This document shows positions 32,516 through 37,759 of a stretch of 64,000 bases of DNA, piece by piece. The translations under genes and the position numbers were made by a program. Under the pieces are notes generated by a model. The model was not told the DNA's origin. It did no database searches and worked only from the letters and a program-made list of their open reading frames with translations. Position 1 is the first letter of the stretch, and each line of letters begins with the position of its first letter. The stretch covers positions 1 through 64,000 of the forward strand of contig JACPAV010000016.1 in the NCBI GenBank assembly GCA_016180645.1, read 5' to 3'. The stretch is from Nitrospirota bacterium (lineage in GTDB: Bacteria; JACPQY01).

Positions 32516-34495
32516 TTGGACCAGCAGCGAATTCTCGACCAGATTCTCAACCGACTCTCGCTTCCCGACCTCGTCCAGAAATACACGCCCCTCAAGCTCT
32601 CCGGTAGACAGCATTCGGGGCTCTGCCCCTTCCACTCGGAGAAGACACCCTCGTTCAGCGTCAGCGCCGAAAAAGGGCTTTACCACTGCTTCGGCTGCGG
32701 TGCCGGCGGTAATTTGTTCACCTTTTACATGCAGATGGAGCGGGTCACATTCCCCGAGGCCGTCAAAGAGCTCGCGAGGCGGGCGGGCGTGGAGATTCCA
32801 TCCTCTCCCCAGGACGCCCGACGCGAAAGTCGGCGGGACGCGATGCGTCGGGCTCTGGGCGAGGCCCTGGCGTTCTTTCGGGAGAAGCTGTCCGACTCGC
32901 GGGAGGGATCGGCCACCCTCTCCTACCTGCGCGACCGCGGCCTGACGGAGGAAACCATCAACCGCTTCGAGGTCGGCTGGGCGCCGGCGGAGTGGGAATC
33001 GCTGGCCCAACATCTGCGGCGGAAGAAAATCGATCTCACACTGGCCGAAGCCTGCGGCCTCGTGCGAAAAAAAGCCTCCGGCCATTACGATTATTTCCGG
33101 GCTCGGATCATCTTCCCCATCCGGGATGCGCAAGGGCGACTCTCCGGCTTCGGCGGCCGGGTCCTTCCCGAAGCTCACGCCTCTCGCCCCTCGACCCCCA
33201 CGACGGGGGAAGTGCCGCGGGAGGGCACCCTGAAGGAATCGATGGAATCGGGCAGGGTACTTCGCAGCCTCCCGGAGCGGCCGCCTCCCACCTCCCGGGC
33301 GGAGCCCAAGTATCTCAACTCGCCGGACAGCGAGGTGTTCCGCAAGGGCGAAATCCTCTTTGGCCTCCAGGCGGGGCGGGATTCGATCCTCAAGCAGGGT
33401 GAAGTCACCCTCGTAGAAGGGTACATGGACGCCATCAGCCTCCATCAAGCCGGTCTATCGAACACGGTGGCTCCACTCGGCACGGCGCTCACAACGATCC
33501 ACATCCGGCTCCTCAAGCGTTTCTCACCCGCCTTTCGCATCCTCTTCGACCCCGACGAGGCCGGCGTCAAGGCGGCCCTCCGCTCACTCCCCCTGCTGTT
33601 GGCGGAAGGCATCCTCGCACGAGCCGTGCGACTGCCCGCGGGTCTGGACCCGGACGCCTTCGTTCGGGAGCGTGGCGCGGATGCCCTCCGAGCCCTATTC
33701 GCCTCGGATCAGGATCTCTTCGAAATGGCCATCGACGTGGTCCTCAAGGCCACTCCCCCAACCACGCCCCAGGGCAAGAAAGCGGCCGCGGACCGCCTCC
33801 TCGCCCTTCTTCGACCGGTAACAGATTCCATCATTCTCGACACTTATGTGCGGATGATCTCCCCCCGACTTGGGATTCGCGAGGATGCGCTTTGGCGTTC
33901 TCTCCCCCCGGCGGTTCAAGCGGGCACGGATCCTCGGCCCTCCCCCGTTCCACCCCGATCCATGCCGGGCGCCGGCCGTCTCGCCTCCCTTCGCGAAAAG
34001 CAGCGCGACCTCATGGAAAAGACCGCCCTCCAAGCCGCACTCGACGATCCCCGCCTCTGGTCCGTTCTCTTTCACGCCGGCCTTTTTTTCAAGGATCCGT
34101 GGCGCGCCAAGCTGATCGACACCGCCCATCGCCGGTTCGAAGGTCGGTCCCCGAGCCCCGAGGCGTTCGCAACGCTCTTCACCGAGAAGGACGATTGCGA
34201 GAATTTCAGCCGGCTCGCCTTGGAGCGACCTTCAGCGGTCACGGCATCGCCGGACGAGCGCCTGCACAACGCCCTCAACGGACTCTTTGACCTTGCCAAA
34301 AAGGAGAAATTGGTTTATGTAAGGAACCTTATTCAGAAAGCCGGCAAGCACAACGACGATGCAGAAATGAAGCGGCTATTGCTCGCGAAGAAGCGCGTCG
34401 AAAATTCGCAGCTCGAATGGCCGCTGGATCGAACGCCGGATCTTTTCGCGGAAAAGGAACCCGAGCCGTTGGACGGCCTTTCCGGGCGAGCATGA
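32516..34495 (+). CDS. dnaG: DNA primase, carrying a 30-codon repeat insertion
   Basis: [31 protein letters not shown]...PKYLNSP, VEGYMD, FDPDEAG, DPD. Confidence 0.97.
33192..33281 (+). repeat. 90-nt structured repeat, copy 1 (in frame within dnaG)
   Basis: 84/90 identical to the reverse complement of 44220-44309. Confidence 0.92.
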
Positions 34496-36294
34496 CCATG
34501 GCAAAGAAAAAGAAAAAGGAAACACCGGCCAAGCCGAACGAGCAGAAGAACAAGAACGCCATGAAGGCGGTGATCCAGCGCGCCCGCGAAAAGGGCGGCT
34601 ACATCACCGTGGACGAACTCATGGACTTCCTACCCATCGAAGATTTCACCACCGACCAATTGGACGACATCATCAGCGAACTCAGCGACAAAGGGCTCGA
34701 ATTGGTGGATCCCCTGTCCCACCCGGCCGCTCCCAAGCCGCCCGTCGAAGGCGCTCCCGAAGGCCCCACCACCGCCCAACCGGCGGAAGACTACGACGAC
34801 CTCGTTCGGAACGATCCCGTCCGCATGTACCTCAAAGAAATGGGCGCCATCCCGCTCCTGACGCGCGAAGGGGAAATCGAAATCGCAAAAAAGATCGAAC
34901 GGGGCGAGGATGAGGTCCTCCGAGCCGTCATCGAATGCCCCATCACCTGCGAGGAATTCATCCGCATCGGACGGAAGCTCAAGGAGGGGAAGCTCAAGCT
35001 CCGGGATGTGATCAAGGACATCGACGACGAGGATCAGGAGATCGACGAGAAGGTGTACATGAAGCGGATCCTCCGGTGCACCGGAAAGATCGAGAACATT
35101 TACAAGACCAACAAGAAGGGGTACGACCGGCTGAGGAGACGCGGGCTCTCGGAGCGCACCCGCTCGAGACTGAAGTCCAAGGTCGACGCCAACAATGACA
35201 AGATCGTCCACCTGCTCAAGGAGATCCATCTGAACTGGAAGCAGGTGGGCCGGATCACCCAACAGCTCAAGGATCTCGTCGGACGGATCGACAAGGGCAA
35301 GGAAGAGCTCCAAGTCATGGAGAAAACCAAGAACATCCCCATCGACCAACTGGCCAAACAGCTCCGAAAAATCCGGCGGCTGCCCAAGAAAAGCCAGTTG
35401 GACAAACTGGGGGACCTTGGGCTTTACAGCATGGACGCGCTGATCGAATTGGAGAACCAGATCCATCGGGCACGCCGGCGGATCAAGCGCGTGGAAGCCG
35501 AGACGGAACTTTCGGCCGGACAGCTCGAACAAACCATCAACCGGATTGCGGATGGGGAGCACCGGGCGCGCACGGCCAAGAAGGATCTCATCCAGGCCAA
35601 CCTTCGCCTCGTGGTCAGCATCGCCAAGAAATACACCAACCGCGGACTTTCCTTCCTGGACCTCATCCAGGAAGGCAACATCGGCTTGATGAAAGCGGTG
35701 GAGAAGTTCGACTACCGGAAGGGATACAAGTTCAGCACCTATGCCACGTGGTGGATCCGGCAATCGATCACCCGCGCCATCGCCGATCAGGCCCGCACCA
35801 TCCGCATTCCCGTGCACATGATCGAGACCCTGAACAAGCTCATTCGGGTCTCCCGCCAGCTCGTTCAGGAAAAGGGTCGCGAACCGACACCGGACGAGAT
35901 CGCGGAGAAGATGGACATGCCGGAAGACAAGGTGCGGAAGATCCTGAAGATCGCCAAGGAACCCGTCTCGCTTGAAACCCCGATCGGCGACGAGGAGGAT
36001 ACGCACCTCGGAGATTTCATCGAGGACCCCAAGATTCTCAGCCCGGAGCAGGCCTCGGAAAAGCGGGACATGCACGATCAGATTCAGCGGGCGCTCGGGC
36101 AGCTCACCCCGCGCGAGGAGCGTGTGCTCCGTCTGCGCTTCGGCCTGGGGGTGGACTCGGACCACACGCTCGAAGAAGTGGGGCGGGACTTCCAGGTGAC
36201 CCGCGAGCGCATCCGCCAGATCGAAGCGAAGGCCCTCCGCAAACTTCGCCATCCCACCCGGAGCCGAAAATTGAAAACCTTCAGCCAGGAATGA
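34492..36294 (+). CDS. rpoD: RNA polymerase primary sigma factor sigma70
   Basis: [73 protein letters not shown] overlap with dnaG. Confidence 0.98.
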
Positions 36295-36308
36295 GCGCGA
36301 ATCCAGAG

Positions 36309-36380
36309 GGTCCCGTAGCTCAACGGTTAAAGCGGCCGCCTTATAAGCGGCTGATCCTGGTTCGACTCCAGGCGGGACCA
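36309..36380 (+). tRNA. tRNA-Ile with anticodon UAU; CCA not encoded
   Basis: Acceptor GGTCCCG/CGGGACC+A73, anticodon arm GCCGC-CTTATAA-GCGGC, T arm CCTGG-TTCGACT-CCAGG. Confidence 0.93.
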
Positions 36381-36420
36381 CGTGACATGCGGTCCATCCT
36401 GGACCGCTTCCTTTCGTGGC

Positions 36421-36513
36421 CCCATGGCCTTCCTGGCATGGGACCAGCCATGGAGGGTGCGGTACTTGGCGCAATACGGCAGGCAGGAAGCCTGCCCTTC
36501 CAACGCCAAGTGC
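36421..36513. repeat. Intergenic palindromes with AGGAA-loop hairpins
   Basis: cccatg-gcc-TTCCT-ggc-atggg; gtacttggcg..GGCAGGC-AGGAA-GCCTGCC..cgccaagtgc. Confidence 0.55.
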
Positions 36514-36538
36514 CAGCCTTGGACACCACATCCCCCGC

Positions 36539-37291
36539 ATGAAGAACATCCGCGCCCAGATCGAAATCCTCCTTCAGCTTCAGGAAGTGGACGTCAGGAT
36601 CCAGCAAATGCGCGATGCAAAAGAACGGATCCCCCGCGAGCTCGATATCAACCGGAGCGAGCTGGAGCTCTGTTCCCAGACCACCGAAGACGCCAGGCAG
36701 GCTCTTGCGAAACACGAGGCGGAACAGAAAGCCATCGAGCACGAGATCCAGCTTGAGAAGGAACAGATTCAACGCTACGAAGAGCGCGTCAGCCAGATCA
36801 AGACGAACAAGGAATATCAGGCCATGCTGAAGGAGATCTCGGTCGCGAAAAAAATGAAAGAGGAAAGCGAGGATGAACTTCTGAAAACCATGATGCTCCT
36901 CGATGAAAGCCGTCGCCTGGTGACCCAAAGACAGGGCGAGTCGGCCGGAAAAGAAAAGGAGTTCAAAGAGAAGGAAGCGGAACTTCTGCGAAAGCTGGCC
37001 GAAGTGGACAAGGATATCAATGGCGTCGTGGACGGTCGGAACCGGCTGGCCGCCCAGGTCGATCGATCGCTCCTTCAGAAGTACGACATGATCCGGCAGA
37101 AACGGGAAGGCATCGCGGTCTCAAAAGCAGCCAACGAACTCTGCCTCGCCTGTCATCGGAACATCCCCCCCCAGCTCTACAACGAGATTCTGAAGGACGA
37201 CACGCTGATCGCGTGTCCCAACTGCCAGCGGATCCTGTATTACGAAGGGCCCTCTGAGGCGGCCCCATCCAAAGCGGCCTCACAGGCTTAA
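36539..37291 (+). CDS. Coiled-coil protein with a C-terminal C4 zinc ribbon (DUF164/HP0958-like)
   Basis: LLQLQEVD, KTNKEYQAMLKEI, CLACHRNIPPQ...CPNCQRILY. Confidence 0.92.
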   Translation: MKNIRAQIEILLQLQEVDVRIQQMRDAKERIPRELDINRSELELCSQTTEDARQALAKHEAEQKAIEHEIQLEKEQIQRYEERVSQIKTNKEYQAMLKEISVAKKMKEESEDELLKTMMLLDESRRLVTQRQGESAGKEKEFKEKEAELLRKLAEVDKDINGVVDGRNRLAAQVDRSLLQKYDMIRQKREGIAVSKAANELCLACHRNIPPQLYNEILKDDTLIACPNCQRILYYEGPSEAAPSKAASQA

Positions 37292-37759
37292 GTGGCCGAC
37301 CTCCCCACATCCGCCGCCCCACCCGCGCCCGACCTGATCATCTACGTGGACGGGGCATCGCGGGGCAACCCTGGACCCGCCGGGGGGGGGGCCGTCCTCA
37401 AGGACGCCGCCGGAAAAACGACGCAGGAAATTGTCCTCCCGTTGGGGAAAACCACCAACAACGTGGCCGAGTACAGCGCGCTGATTGCCGCCCTTGAACA
37501 GGCCCAAATTCGAAAGGCCAAGCGGATCAAGGTCTTCTCGGATTCGCTTCTCATGGTGAACCAGGTCACGGGCATCTATCGCGTACGGCACCCTCGAATC
37601 CTCCCACTCTGGGACAAGATCCAATCGCTCCTTCGCCCTTTCGAGTGGGAAATCGTACACATCCCCCGGAAGGCGAATCAAGAGGCGGATCGCCTCGCCA
37701 ACATGGCCGCCGCCCGCAGCGAAGCGGGCGAAAAGCCTTCCACCCCCGTCCCGGCGTAG
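37292..37759 (+). CDS. rnhA: Ribonuclease HI family protein
   Basis: IYVDGASRGNPGPAGGG, TNNVAEYSALI, SDSLLMVNQV, HIPRKANQEADRLAN. Confidence 0.93.
   Translation: MADLPTSAAPPAPDLIIYVDGASRGNPGPAGGGAVLKDAAGKTTQEIVLPLGKTTNNVAEYSALIAALEQAQIRKAKRIKVFSDSLLMVNQVTGIYRVRHPRILPLWDKIQSLLRPFEWEIVHIPRKANQEADRLANMAAARSEAGEKPSTPVPA

What the first reader, a model, noticed from the sequence alone, without database searches (positions are those of the whole stretch)
36309..36380. tRNA-Ile with a UAU anticodon downstream of rpoD
Seen: an intact cloverleaf with anticodon loop CT-TAT-AA (TAT at 36342-36344) and discriminator A. Established: almost all bacteria read AUA with tRNA-Ile2(CAU) modified to lysidine by TilS; UAU tRNAs are rare (e.g. 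Mycoplasma mobile, which lacks tilS) because U34 risks reading AUG. A CAU tRNA commonly follows rpoD in proteobacteria. Inference: a C34-to-U change in the tRNA-Ile2 gene, predicting loss of tilS and an alternative way to separate AUA from AUG.
Basis: partly seen in the sequence, partly recalled or inferred. Interest (0 to 1): 0.78.

Follow-up and report, generated by a model that had tools for sequence, protein, structure and literature searches.

The report
Lysidine-free AUA-reading isoleucine tRNA
This is a real isoleucine tRNA gene that reads the rare AUA codon directly, in a large free-living groundwater bacterium whose small deep lineage appears to have lost the near-universal enzyme TilS that other bacteria need for this codon.

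Summary
Window 36309-36380 (+) is an intact tRNA-Ile with anticodon UAU (ARAGORN; Rfam 68.3 bits), 14 nt after rpoD. Contigs from 4 metagenome runs in 3 studies show no difference there.

The genome (97% complete) and the only other genome of its phylum (84% complete) have no TilS, no TiaS and no third CAU tRNA. Each has one initiator, one elongator Met, one Ile(GAU) and this Ile(UAU). TilS was found in 394 of 401 sampled genomes.

A CAU tRNA follows rpoD in 37 of 80 proteobacterial loci and 9 of 28 other-phylum loci, so this gene sits where tRNA-Ile2 normally lies. AUA is in use (about 2 per 1000 codons) and behaves as isoleucine.

Unlike Mycoplasma mobile, the type-1 IleRS keeps the tryptophan that contacts the wobble base. 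How the tRNA is charged and how AUG is rejected remain open.

Two mobile-element-linked tRNA arrays carry further UAU copies.

The kind is known (M. mobile, Bifidobacterium, Neorickettsia). This scan noted it before in CPR genomes. Here it is a new member, in a non-reduced 4.7 Mb genome.

The parts
36309..36380 (+). tRNA-Ile(UAU) gene, 72 nt up to discriminator A; no encoded CCA
   Evidence: ARAGORN; Rfam RF00005 at 68.3 bits; fold z = -4.29; 93% identical orthologue in G001
36342..36344 (+). anticodon TAT (U34 A35 U36) within loop C-T-TAT-A-A
   Evidence: sequence; ARAGORN anticodon at position 34; no variant in contigs of 4 runs
34417..36294 (+). rpoD (primary sigma-70 factor), 625 aa; stop codon 14 nt before the tRNA
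   Evidence: translation; Pfam Sigma70 r1.1, r1.2, r2, r3, r4; 78% identical orthologue in G001 lies 235 nt upstream of its tRNA(UAU)
32516..34495 (+). dnaG primase upstream of rpoD (start codon uncertain)
   Evidence: Pfam Zn_ribbon_DnaG, DNAG_N, Toprim and DnaB_bind
36389..36407 (+). G+C-rich hairpin (8 pairs) with T-rich tail, 8 nt after the tRNA; a likely terminator of an rpoD-tRNA transcript
   Evidence: consensus scan. In total 5 terminator-like sites were found against 4.7 expected, so the scan alone is weak. No promoter-like site was found in 34000-36800.
36416..37291 (+). CT398-like coiled-coil / C4 zinc-ribbon protein. The ORF runs from GTG 36416; the probable start is ATG 36539, by likeness to the G001 protein. 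Same order in G001.
   Evidence: Pfam PF24481 and PF02591; G001 neighbour
37292..37759 (+). RNase H-like protein; same order in G001
   Evidence: Pfam PF13456 and PF00075; G001 neighbour

Best explanation
The gene encodes the cell's own reader of the isoleucine codon AUA: a tRNA-Ile whose UAU anticodon pairs with AUA directly. It occupies the conserved slot just after rpoD, where other bacteria keep tRNA-Ile2(CAU). It is probably co-transcribed with rpoD and cut out of that transcript. In this lineage it has replaced the TilS/lysidine system: there is no TilS, no TiaS and no CAU-type tRNA-Ile2, so AUA codons (about 2 per 1000, including codons in gyrA and ileS) depend on it. Shown here: the gene, its conservation and position, the absence of TilS and Ile2(CAU) from both genomes of the phylum, and the use of AUA as isoleucine. 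Inferred: the tRNA is charged by the type-1 IleRS through the general isoleucine identity elements it shares with tRNA-Ile(GAU). Also inferred: U34 is unmodified, so it reads AUA well and AUG only weakly, as measured in Bacillus subtilis and Mycoplasma mobile, with competition from tRNA-Met keeping Ile-for-Met errors tolerable.
For: The tRNA is real. The base call is supported.

TilS is absent. The only PP-loop hit in G000 scores 39.8 bits against a cut-off of 93.6 and is TtuA-like. G001 has none. The phylum holds only these 2 genomes. TilS is over the cut-off in 39 of 39 other-phylum genomes and is found in 394 of 401 genomes at least 90% complete. TiaS is found in 0 of 2.

tRNA sets. G000 has 48 tRNAs outside the arrays: 2 CAU, 1 GAU, 1 UAU. 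G001 has 42 tRNAs: 2 CAU, 1 GAU, 1 UAU. The CAU tRNAs are an initiator (C1 mismatch) and an elongator with G4-C69 and G29-C41, which is not Ile-like. The Rfam scan adds no further CAU tRNA.

Position. A CAU tRNA lies directly after rpoD on the same strand in 37 of 80 proteobacterial loci and 9 of 28 other-phylum loci. No other anticodon was seen there. G001 keeps the order rpoD, tRNA(UAU), zinc-ribbon gene, RNase H.

AUA is used as Ile. There are 2551 ATA codons, 4.1% of Ile codons, in 1537 of 3169 crude gene calls. ileS has 3 ATA and gyrA has 1. Of 57 ATA sites aligned to G001, 32 face Ile and 2 face Met. This matches ATC (1309 of 2202 face Ile), whereas ATG faces Met at 721 of 1273 sites.

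Literature. Unmodified U34 in a UAU anticodon reads AUA strongly and AUG weakly (PMC3919564, passages read; PMC3575796, discussion section and passages read).
Against: Both assemblies are drafts (97% and 84% complete), so absence of TilS is 'not found', not proven.

IleRS is type 1 and keeps the Trp equivalent to E. coli W905 (CVRCW in G000, CPRCW in G001), as do all 21 other IleRS1 C-termini aligned. E. coli IleRS with this Trp charges a UAU tRNA about 360-fold worse than the lysidine form (table in PMC3575796). Simple charging of an unmodified UAU tRNA is therefore not assured.

Profiles built from rpoD-linked CAU tRNAs score the genome's Lys(CUU) and Ile(GAU) tRNAs above this tRNA. The anticodon stem matches the genome's own tRNA-Ile(GAU) in 4 of 5 pairs. 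Descent from Ile2 is therefore supported by position only.

MnmG and MnmA are present, so a U34 modification cannot be excluded.

No expression or modification data exist.
Confidence: 0.8

Rival explanations
1. U34 of this tRNA is modified, by a known U34 pathway or by an undescribed enzyme. The modified base, not plain U, would then be what the Trp-retaining IleRS recognises and what blocks pairing with AUG. This would be a functional analogue of lysidine built on uridine.
For: IleRS keeps the wobble-stacking Trp in both genomes. In the published set this Trp goes with TilS-bearing species, and E. coli IleRS with it charges UAU poorly (PMC3575796). MnmA is present in both genomes and MnmG in G000. 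[quoted passage not shown]
Against: In both bacteria where it was measured (M. mobile, and the B. subtilis suppressor strain) U34 of the UAU tRNA is unmodified. The archaeal mutant with a modified U34 read AUG and AUU as well. No candidate enzyme was found: the only TilS-like PP-loop protein is TtuA-like and is not found in G001.
Confidence: 0.25
2. The tRNA descends from a duplicate of tRNA-Ile1(GAU) by a G34-to-U change, as in the laboratory B. subtilis tilS-deletion suppressor. It would not descend from tRNA-Ile2(CAU) by C34-to-U.
For: The anticodon stem (GCCGC/GCGGC) matches the genome's own tRNA-Ile(GAU) (TCCGC/GCGGG) in 4 of 5 pairs, and the acceptor stem matches in 6 of 7. Profiles of rpoD-linked CAU tRNAs do not rank this tRNA above the GAU tRNA. 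There is a B. subtilis precedent.
Against: The gene sits exactly where a CAU tRNA follows rpoD in 37 of 80 proteobacterial and 9 of 28 other-phylum loci, with no other anticodon seen there. The shared stems are also expected from shared IleRS identity elements. The D loop, variable region and T arm differ from the GAU tRNA.
Confidence: 0.2
3. TilS and tRNA-Ile2(CAU) exist but lie in unassembled parts of both draft genomes. The UAU tRNA would then be a redundant extra reader, as in Lactobacillus casei or Cyanothece.
For: G000 has 65 contigs and is 97% complete; G001 has about 90 contigs and is 84% complete. Redundant UAU plus TilS is known (PMC3575796).
Against: Two genes (tilS and the CAU tRNA) would have to be missed in two independent assemblies. 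The slot where tRNA-Ile2 normally lies is occupied by the UAU gene in both. TilS was found in 391 of 401 genomes above the cut-off with the same search.
Confidence: 0.03
4. T36342 is an assembly or sequencing error in a normal CAU tRNA-Ile2 gene.
For: None found.
Against: The same base is present in contigs from 4 runs of 3 studies, in G001, and in two further UAU genes of the same genome.
Confidence: 0.01

Closest known systems
Mycoplasma mobile tRNA-Ile2(UAU) system (Taniguchi et al. 2013, PMC3575796)
   Same: Gene-encoded UAU anticodon, no tilS, no CAU-type tRNA-Ile2, bacterial type-1 IleRS with a zinc-binding C-terminal domain.
   Different: M. mobile IleRS has Arg865 in place of the wobble-stacking Trp (Lys or Leu in two haemoplasmas). 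Here the Trp is kept in both genomes. M. mobile is a reduced-genome parasite. This is a 4.7 Mb genome with 61% G+C, found in groundwater metagenomes.
Bifidobacterium and Neorickettsia species lacking tilS (PMC3575796, discussion)
   Same: No tilS, together with a tRNA-Ile(TAT) gene.
   Different: Those species use the eukaryote-like IleRS2. This lineage uses IleRS1 (TIGR00392 at 899 bits; zinc-binding CxxC...CxxC tail).
Bacillus subtilis tilS-deletion suppressor strain (Kohrer et al. 2014, PMC3919564)
   Same: AUA is read by a tRNA-Ile with UAU. The work shows that unmodified U34 binds AUA strongly and AUG weakly, with misreading near 1 in 1000.
   Different: It is a laboratory mutant derived from tRNA-Ile1(GAU), and B. 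subtilis IleRS has Arg at the wobble-contact site. Here the state is natural, fixed in a lineage, and sits at the Ile2 slot.
Bacteria with both tilS and tRNA-Ile(TAT): Cyanothece PCC 7424, Ferrimonas balearica, Lactobacillus casei/plantarum (PMC3575796, discussion)
   Same: Cyanothece and Ferrimonas combine a TAT gene with a Trp-retaining IleRS1, as here.
   Different: They keep TilS, so the UAU tRNA is redundant and may be poorly charged. Here no TilS was found.
CPR/Patescibacteria tRNA-Ile(UAU) noted earlier by this scan (e1-852601, e1-878453, e1-1567614)
   Same: UAU tRNA at a fixed chromosomal slot in lineages where TilS looks absent.
   Different: Those are ultra-small genomes with a different slot (ftsH in one note). 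Later checks marked part of two of those reports as fallen. I did not re-test them.

Membership tests
tRNA (Rfam RF00005), isotype Ile | Cloverleaf matching the tRNA covariance model | tested here: met
   68.3 bits against gathering score 29, full length; ARAGORN
tRNA (Rfam RF00005), isotype Ile | Anticodon N-A-U, with A37 and A38, discriminator A73, C4-G69, U12-A23 and C29-G41. This list of E. coli IleRS identity elements is recalled, not taken from a call. | tested here: met
   Read from the sequence and the ARAGORN drawing: all of these are present. The core elongator CAU tRNA has G4-C69 and G29-C41 instead.
TilS-independent AUA decoding by tRNA-Ile(UAU) | Gene-encoded UAU anticodon on an Ile-type tRNA | tested here: met
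TilS-independent AUA decoding by tRNA-Ile(UAU) | No tilS in the genome | tested here: met
   TIGR02432 and PF01171 find only a TtuA-like protein below the cut-off in G000 and nothing in G001. Both are draft genomes, so this means 'not found'.
TilS-independent AUA decoding by tRNA-Ile(UAU) | No CAU-type tRNA-Ile2 | tested here: met
   G000 core and G001 each have 2 CAU tRNAs, an initiator and an elongator. tRNAscan-SE isotype models were not available.
TilS-independent AUA decoding by tRNA-Ile(UAU) | AUA still used and read as Ile | tested here: met
   1.96 per 1000 codons; 32 of 57 aligned ATA sites face Ile and 2 face Met. This is indirect (codon alignment), not proteomic.
M. mobile-type solution specifically | IleRS1 wobble-contact Trp (E. 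coli W905) replaced by Arg or Lys | tested here: not met
   Trp is kept: CVRCW in G000 and CPRCW in G001
M. mobile-type solution specifically | U34 unmodified; the ribosome rejects AUG | not testable with these tools
   Needs tRNA mass spectrometry and A-site binding assays
Bifidobacterium/Neorickettsia-type solution | Eukaryote-like IleRS2 | tested here: not met
   The single IleRS is type 1 with a zinc-binding tail, 45% identical to E. coli IleRS. The other TIGR00392 hits are below the cut-off (the next-best scores 261.4 bits and covers only part of the model) and look like related synthetases; they were not checked further.
Canonical lysidine system | TilS plus tRNA-Ile2(CAU) | tested here: not met
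Archaeal agmatidine system | TiaS | tested here: not met
   PF08489 found in 0 of 2 genomes; the control rings in 4 archaea

The most novel reading that the evidence does not exclude
A whole deep-branching, free-living bacterial lineage reads AUA without lysidine while keeping the IleRS tryptophan that normally goes with lysidine. Its tRNA-Ile(UAU) would then either carry an undescribed wobble-uridine modification, serving both as IleRS identity element and as a block against AUG, or be recognised by a new mode of IleRS1-anticodon contact.
Probability: 0.25. Interest if true: 0.75.

Novelty: new member of a known kind. Interest (0 to 1): 0.5.

Why it matters
TilS is treated as essential and nearly universal in bacteria, and is discussed as a bacteria-specific drug target. 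A 2026 paper still describes natural UAU tRNAs as 'rare cases' (PMC13752280). The published exceptions are mostly reduced parasites, or bacteria with the eukaryote-like IleRS2.

This case shows the same rewiring fixed in a metabolically rich 4.7 Mb genome and in its only known phylum-mate, at the very chromosomal slot where tRNA-Ile2 normally lies. That makes the evolutionary path (anticodon change, then loss of tilS) unusually easy to read.

It also breaks the published link between loss of tilS and replacement of the IleRS wobble-contact tryptophan. This gives a concrete, testable question about how IleRS1 accepts U34 and how AUG is rejected.

Tried and rejected
1. Sequence-based assignment of the tRNA to the Ile2 lineage failed. 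nhmmer profiles built from 21 distinct proteobacterial rpoD-linked CAU tRNAs, and from 9 cross-phylum ones, ranked the genome's own Lys(CUU) and Ile(GAU) (and once Thr or Asn) above the UAU tRNA. The test is uninformative across phyla.

2. The search for related loci with RpoD in genome contigs returned only distant (proteobacterial) loci. They were useful for the synteny count but not for finding relatives.

3. Two pattern scans of metagenome contigs, for the anticodon arm plus T arm and for the 5' half, with Y at position 34 to catch a CAU ancestor, gave 0 matches each. No additional relatives or C34 forms were found there.

4. No RNA holder is listed among the sequencing runs, so nothing can be said on expression.

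5. I looked for a lineage-specific change next to the IleRS Trp. Position +1 is Arg in G000 and G001, but it is also Arg or Lys in several TilS-bearing genomes. Position +2 is Trp, but so it is in two others. I read no signature into it.

6. Relaxed ARAGORN (threshold 90%) gave 5 extra 'CAT' and 1 extra 'TAT' candidates. None is among the 99 Rfam tRNA matches, so I treated them as false positives.

7. I considered the TtuA-like PP-loop protein (C57) as a hidden TilS substitute. I rejected it because it scores as TtuA (264 bits) and has no counterpart found in G001.

8. One call failed on an off-by-one coordinate and was repeated correctly.

9. Supplementary Table S1 and Figure S6 of PMC3575796 (the species list and IleRS alignment) could not be seen. 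They may hold a TilS-less species with a Trp-retaining IleRS1, which I cannot exclude.

Full report
**Observation**

The window holds two tRNA genes. One is tRNA-Ile with anticodon TAT at 36309-36381 (+) (ARAGORN). Rfam RF00005 matches 36309-36380 at 68.3 bits, full length.

The sequence gives an anticodon loop C-U-UAU-A-A, with TAT at 36342-36344. The discriminator is A at 36380, and no CCA is encoded. The RNA folds far better than shuffles (z = -4.29; 0 of 200 fold as well).

The gene starts 14 nt after the stop codon of a 625-aa primary sigma factor with Pfam regions 1.1 to 4. That gene follows dnaG, and gyrA lies 5 kb further on. This is core chromosome on a 132 kb contig.

A hairpin with a T-rich tail follows the tRNA by 8 nt. 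No promoter-like site lies between rpoD and the tRNA (these are consensus matches only). The tRNA is therefore probably cut out of an rpoD transcript. This is an inference.

**Base call**

Contigs from four groundwater-metagenome runs in three studies cover 36308-36381 without a single difference.

One contig, from a second study, joins a diverged rpoD end (23 differences in 170 nt) to an identical tRNA, with 130 extra nucleotides between them. A further relative therefore has the same arrangement. These are contigs, so minor variants could be hidden.

**The rest of the genome**

The assembly has 4.72 Mb in 65 contigs, 61% G+C, 97% completeness and 2.6% contamination.

ARAGORN finds 104 tRNAs. 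Of these, 56 sit in two dense arrays at contig ends (C21 with 30, C29 with 26). The other 48 form an ordinary single-copy set.

Outside the arrays there are two CAU tRNAs:
- One has the C1 mismatch of an initiator.
- The other has G4-C69 and G29-C41, so it is elongator-Met-like.

There is also one Ile(GAU) and this Ile(UAU). The UAU tRNA carries C4-G69, U12-A23, C29-G41, A37, A38 and A73. These are the E. coli IleRS identity elements as I recall them; the list comes from no call.

An Rfam scan of the whole genome gives 99 tRNA matches, of 150 candidates scored out of 189. The ones ARAGORN missed are array members with Thr, Thr, Leu, Arg, Ala and Asp-like anticodons, plus two without a clear cloverleaf. 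None contains a CAU loop. Extra 'CAT' calls at a relaxed ARAGORN threshold are not among the Rfam matches.

**TilS**

TIGR02432 (searched to E = 1) and PF01171 find a single PP-loop protein, at 39.8 bits against a cut-off of 93.6. It scores 264 bits as TtuA, the tRNA U54 2-thiolase, and only 41 bits as TilS. TiaS is absent; the control rings in four archaea.

**Relatives**

The reference collection places only one other genome (G001; another genus, same family; 84% complete) in the same phylum.

G001 has:
- the same tRNA at 93% identity, with an identical anticodon arm and TAT;
- that tRNA 235 nt after its rpoD (78% identical protein), followed by the same zinc-ribbon and RNase H genes;
- no TilS hit;
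- 42 tRNAs: exactly two CAU (orthologues of the initiator and the elongator), one GAU and one UAU, with no arrays.

All 39 genomes of other phyla in the first sample have TilS above the cut-off.

In a wider sample of 401 genomes at least 90% complete, 394 have TilS at E <= 1e-15. The seven without it are:
- this genome;
- three very small genomes (0.5 to 0.9 Mb);
- three genomes whose family-mates do have TilS, which are probably assembly gaps.

**Positional orthology**

A CAU tRNA lies directly downstream of rpoD, on the same strand, in two samples:
- 37 of 80 proteobacterial rpoD loci. Several loci end just after rpoD, so this is a lower bound.
- 9 of 28 rpoD loci from other-phylum genomes.

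No tRNA with any other anticodon was found beside rpoD in either sample.

In a DNA search of 41 genomes with the window's tRNA, 8 genomes matched, G000 included. The 7 loci from other phyla hold CAU tRNAs in 5 cases and Arg or Asn tRNAs in the other 2.

The UAU gene thus sits in the slot of tRNA-Ile2.

Sequence alone does not settle the origin. Profiles of the rpoD-linked CAU tRNAs score the genome's Lys(CUU) and Ile(GAU) tRNAs higher than the UAU tRNA. The UAU tRNA's anticodon stem matches the genome's own GAU tRNA in 4 of 5 pairs. Descent from Ile1, as in the B. subtilis suppressor, stays a minority possibility.

**Is AUA used, and as what?**

With a crude self-trained gene caller, ATA makes up 2551 codons. 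That is 1.96 per 1000 codons and 4.1% of Ile codons, and 1537 of 3169 calls have at least one ATA. On the 537 longest ORFs ATA is 4.5% of Ile codons. The caller mis-called at least dnaG, so these figures are approximate.

ileS has 3 ATA codons and gyrA has 1.

I aligned G000 proteins to 237 kb of G001. This gave 138 alignments of at least 50% identity and 100 aa, kept out of 343 hits.
- The 57 ATA sites face Ile 32 times (26 of these are ATC or ATT), Leu 7, Val 6 and Met 2.
- This profile matches ATC (1309 of 2202 face Ile) and ATT (394 of 674).
- ATG faces Met at 721 of 1273 sites.

AUA therefore means isoleucine and is needed.

**Charging**

The single IleRS over the family cut-off (899 bits) is type 1. 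It is 45% identical to E. coli IleRS and has the C-terminal zinc-binding tail.

In M. mobile the Trp that stacks on the wobble base (E. coli W905) is replaced by Arg865, and W905R makes E. coli IleRS accept UAU. Two haemoplasmas have Lys or Leu at this site. Bifidobacterium and Neorickettsia use IleRS2 (PMC3575796).

Here the Trp is kept in both genomes (CVRCW and CPRCW). The same is true of all 21 other IleRS1 C-termini that could be aligned, out of 24 other-phylum loci. The neighbouring residues show nothing unique. The known protein signature of the M. mobile solution is therefore absent.

Three possibilities remain:
- the tRNA body, which is very Ile1-like, carries enough identity for the modest demand of a 2-per-1000 codon;
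- the enzyme has an unrecognised adaptation;
- U34 is modified.

MnmA is present in both genomes and MnmG in G000. In both measured bacterial cases, however, U34 of the UAU tRNA is left unmodified.

**Discrimination against AUG**

This cannot be tested here.

Published measurements show that unmodified U34 in a UAU anticodon binds AUA strongly and AUG weakly on B. subtilis ribosomes, with misreading near 1 in 1000 and normal growth (PMC3919564). The M. mobile ribosome rejects AUG altogether, while the E. coli ribosome does not (PMC3575796).

The most likely mechanism here is the same: intrinsic A-preference of plain U34, plus competition by tRNA-Met. I hold this at moderate confidence.

**Comparison and novelty**

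TilS-independent AUA decoding by tRNA-Ile(UAU) is a known kind. In 2013, nine species in three clades were listed (PMC3575796; the supplementary list could not be seen). A 2026 paper still calls natural UAU tRNAs 'rare cases' (PMC13752280). A 2025 TilS survey paper has no passage on lineages without TilS (PMC12514573; term search only).

My searches found no paper naming a Nitrospirota-like or other large-genome lineage of this kind.

This scan's earlier notes report the same trait in CPR/Patescibacteria. Later checks marked part of two of those reports as fallen, and I did not re-test them. Other notes call this genome an uncultured Nitrospirota bacterium (unchecked).

I file this as a new member of a known kind. 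It has one departure, the Trp-retaining IleRS1 without TilS, that could make it a new variant if biochemistry confirms it.

**The arrays**

Both arrays carry their own tRNA-Ile(UAU), 71% and 62% identical to the core gene and 76% identical to each other. They also carry initiator-like and elongator-like CAU tRNAs, but again no Ile-like CAU tRNA.

Array tRNAs resemble each other (mean 77% over 18 shared anticodons) more than they resemble the core set (67%).

The arrays adjoin mobile-element genes:
- On C21: a helicase, a T4-type RNA ligase, a tyrosine integrase and an HTH-Fic pair.
- On C29: Tn3-type transposase fragments.

They look like acquired elements. Whether their UAU copies are expressed is unknown.

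Noticed in passing
G000 contig C21:21594-25649 and contig C29:62346-67783 (outside the window; loci L154, L155): Two dense tRNA arrays at contig ends: 30 and 26 ARAGORN calls, plus several more by Rfam. They share gene order at one end (Met, Cys, Asn, Trp, Ile-UAU, Ser-GCU). They are 77% alike to each other and only 67% alike to the core tRNAs. Each has its own tRNA-Ile(UAU) and Ile(GAU). G001 has no such array in its assembled part. In the passages of the survey PMC4758250 that I read (term search), tRNA arrays are described as limited to few phyla.
   Followed up: partly
L154:6454-13468 (G000 C21:14453-21467): Next to the C21 array lie a ResIII/DEAD helicase, a T4-type RNA ligase (PF09511), a tyrosine integrase and an HTH plus Fic/DOC pair. 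An RNA ligase beside a tRNA array suggests a tRNA repair or replacement module against anticodon nucleases, carried on a mobile element. The C29 array is flanked by Tn3-type transposase DDE fragments.
   Followed up: partly
G000 C21:23835-23910 (-) and C21:24546-24638 (-): Array members called 'tRNA-Stop(tta)' and a 93-nt 'tRNA-Asn(att)'. The first has a good cloverleaf but C at position 33 instead of the universal U. It may be a UAA suppressor, a mis-registered loop or a pseudogene.
   Followed up: partly
L001:1354-2517 (G000 C57:100107-101270, +): The only PP-loop ATPase of the TilS/TtcA family in the genome is a TtuA-like protein (NF049949 at 264 bits, below its cut-off of 450). It has an N-terminal CxxC zinc finger and a C-terminal extension of about 90 aa rich in Pro, Gly and Ser. 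No counterpart was found in G001.
   Followed up: partly
genomes G067, G217, G355 (0.5-0.9 Mb) and G127, G131, G261: Six other genomes of the 401 sampled lack a TilS hit. Three are very small genomes and may be further natural TilS-less lineages. The other three have family-mates with TilS and may be assembly gaps.
   Followed up: no
window 36264-36308, as seen in run X5: A relative in a second study's groundwater metagenome has the identical tRNA, but with 130 extra nucleotides between rpoD and the tRNA. G001 has a 235-nt spacer. The 14-nt spacing in this genome is therefore the short extreme.
   Followed up: no
G000 contig C34:7147-7493 (-): A tmRNA with tag peptide AETTALPLAA (ARAGORN). A tRNA-Sec(UCA) is also present in the core tRNA set.
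   Followed up: no
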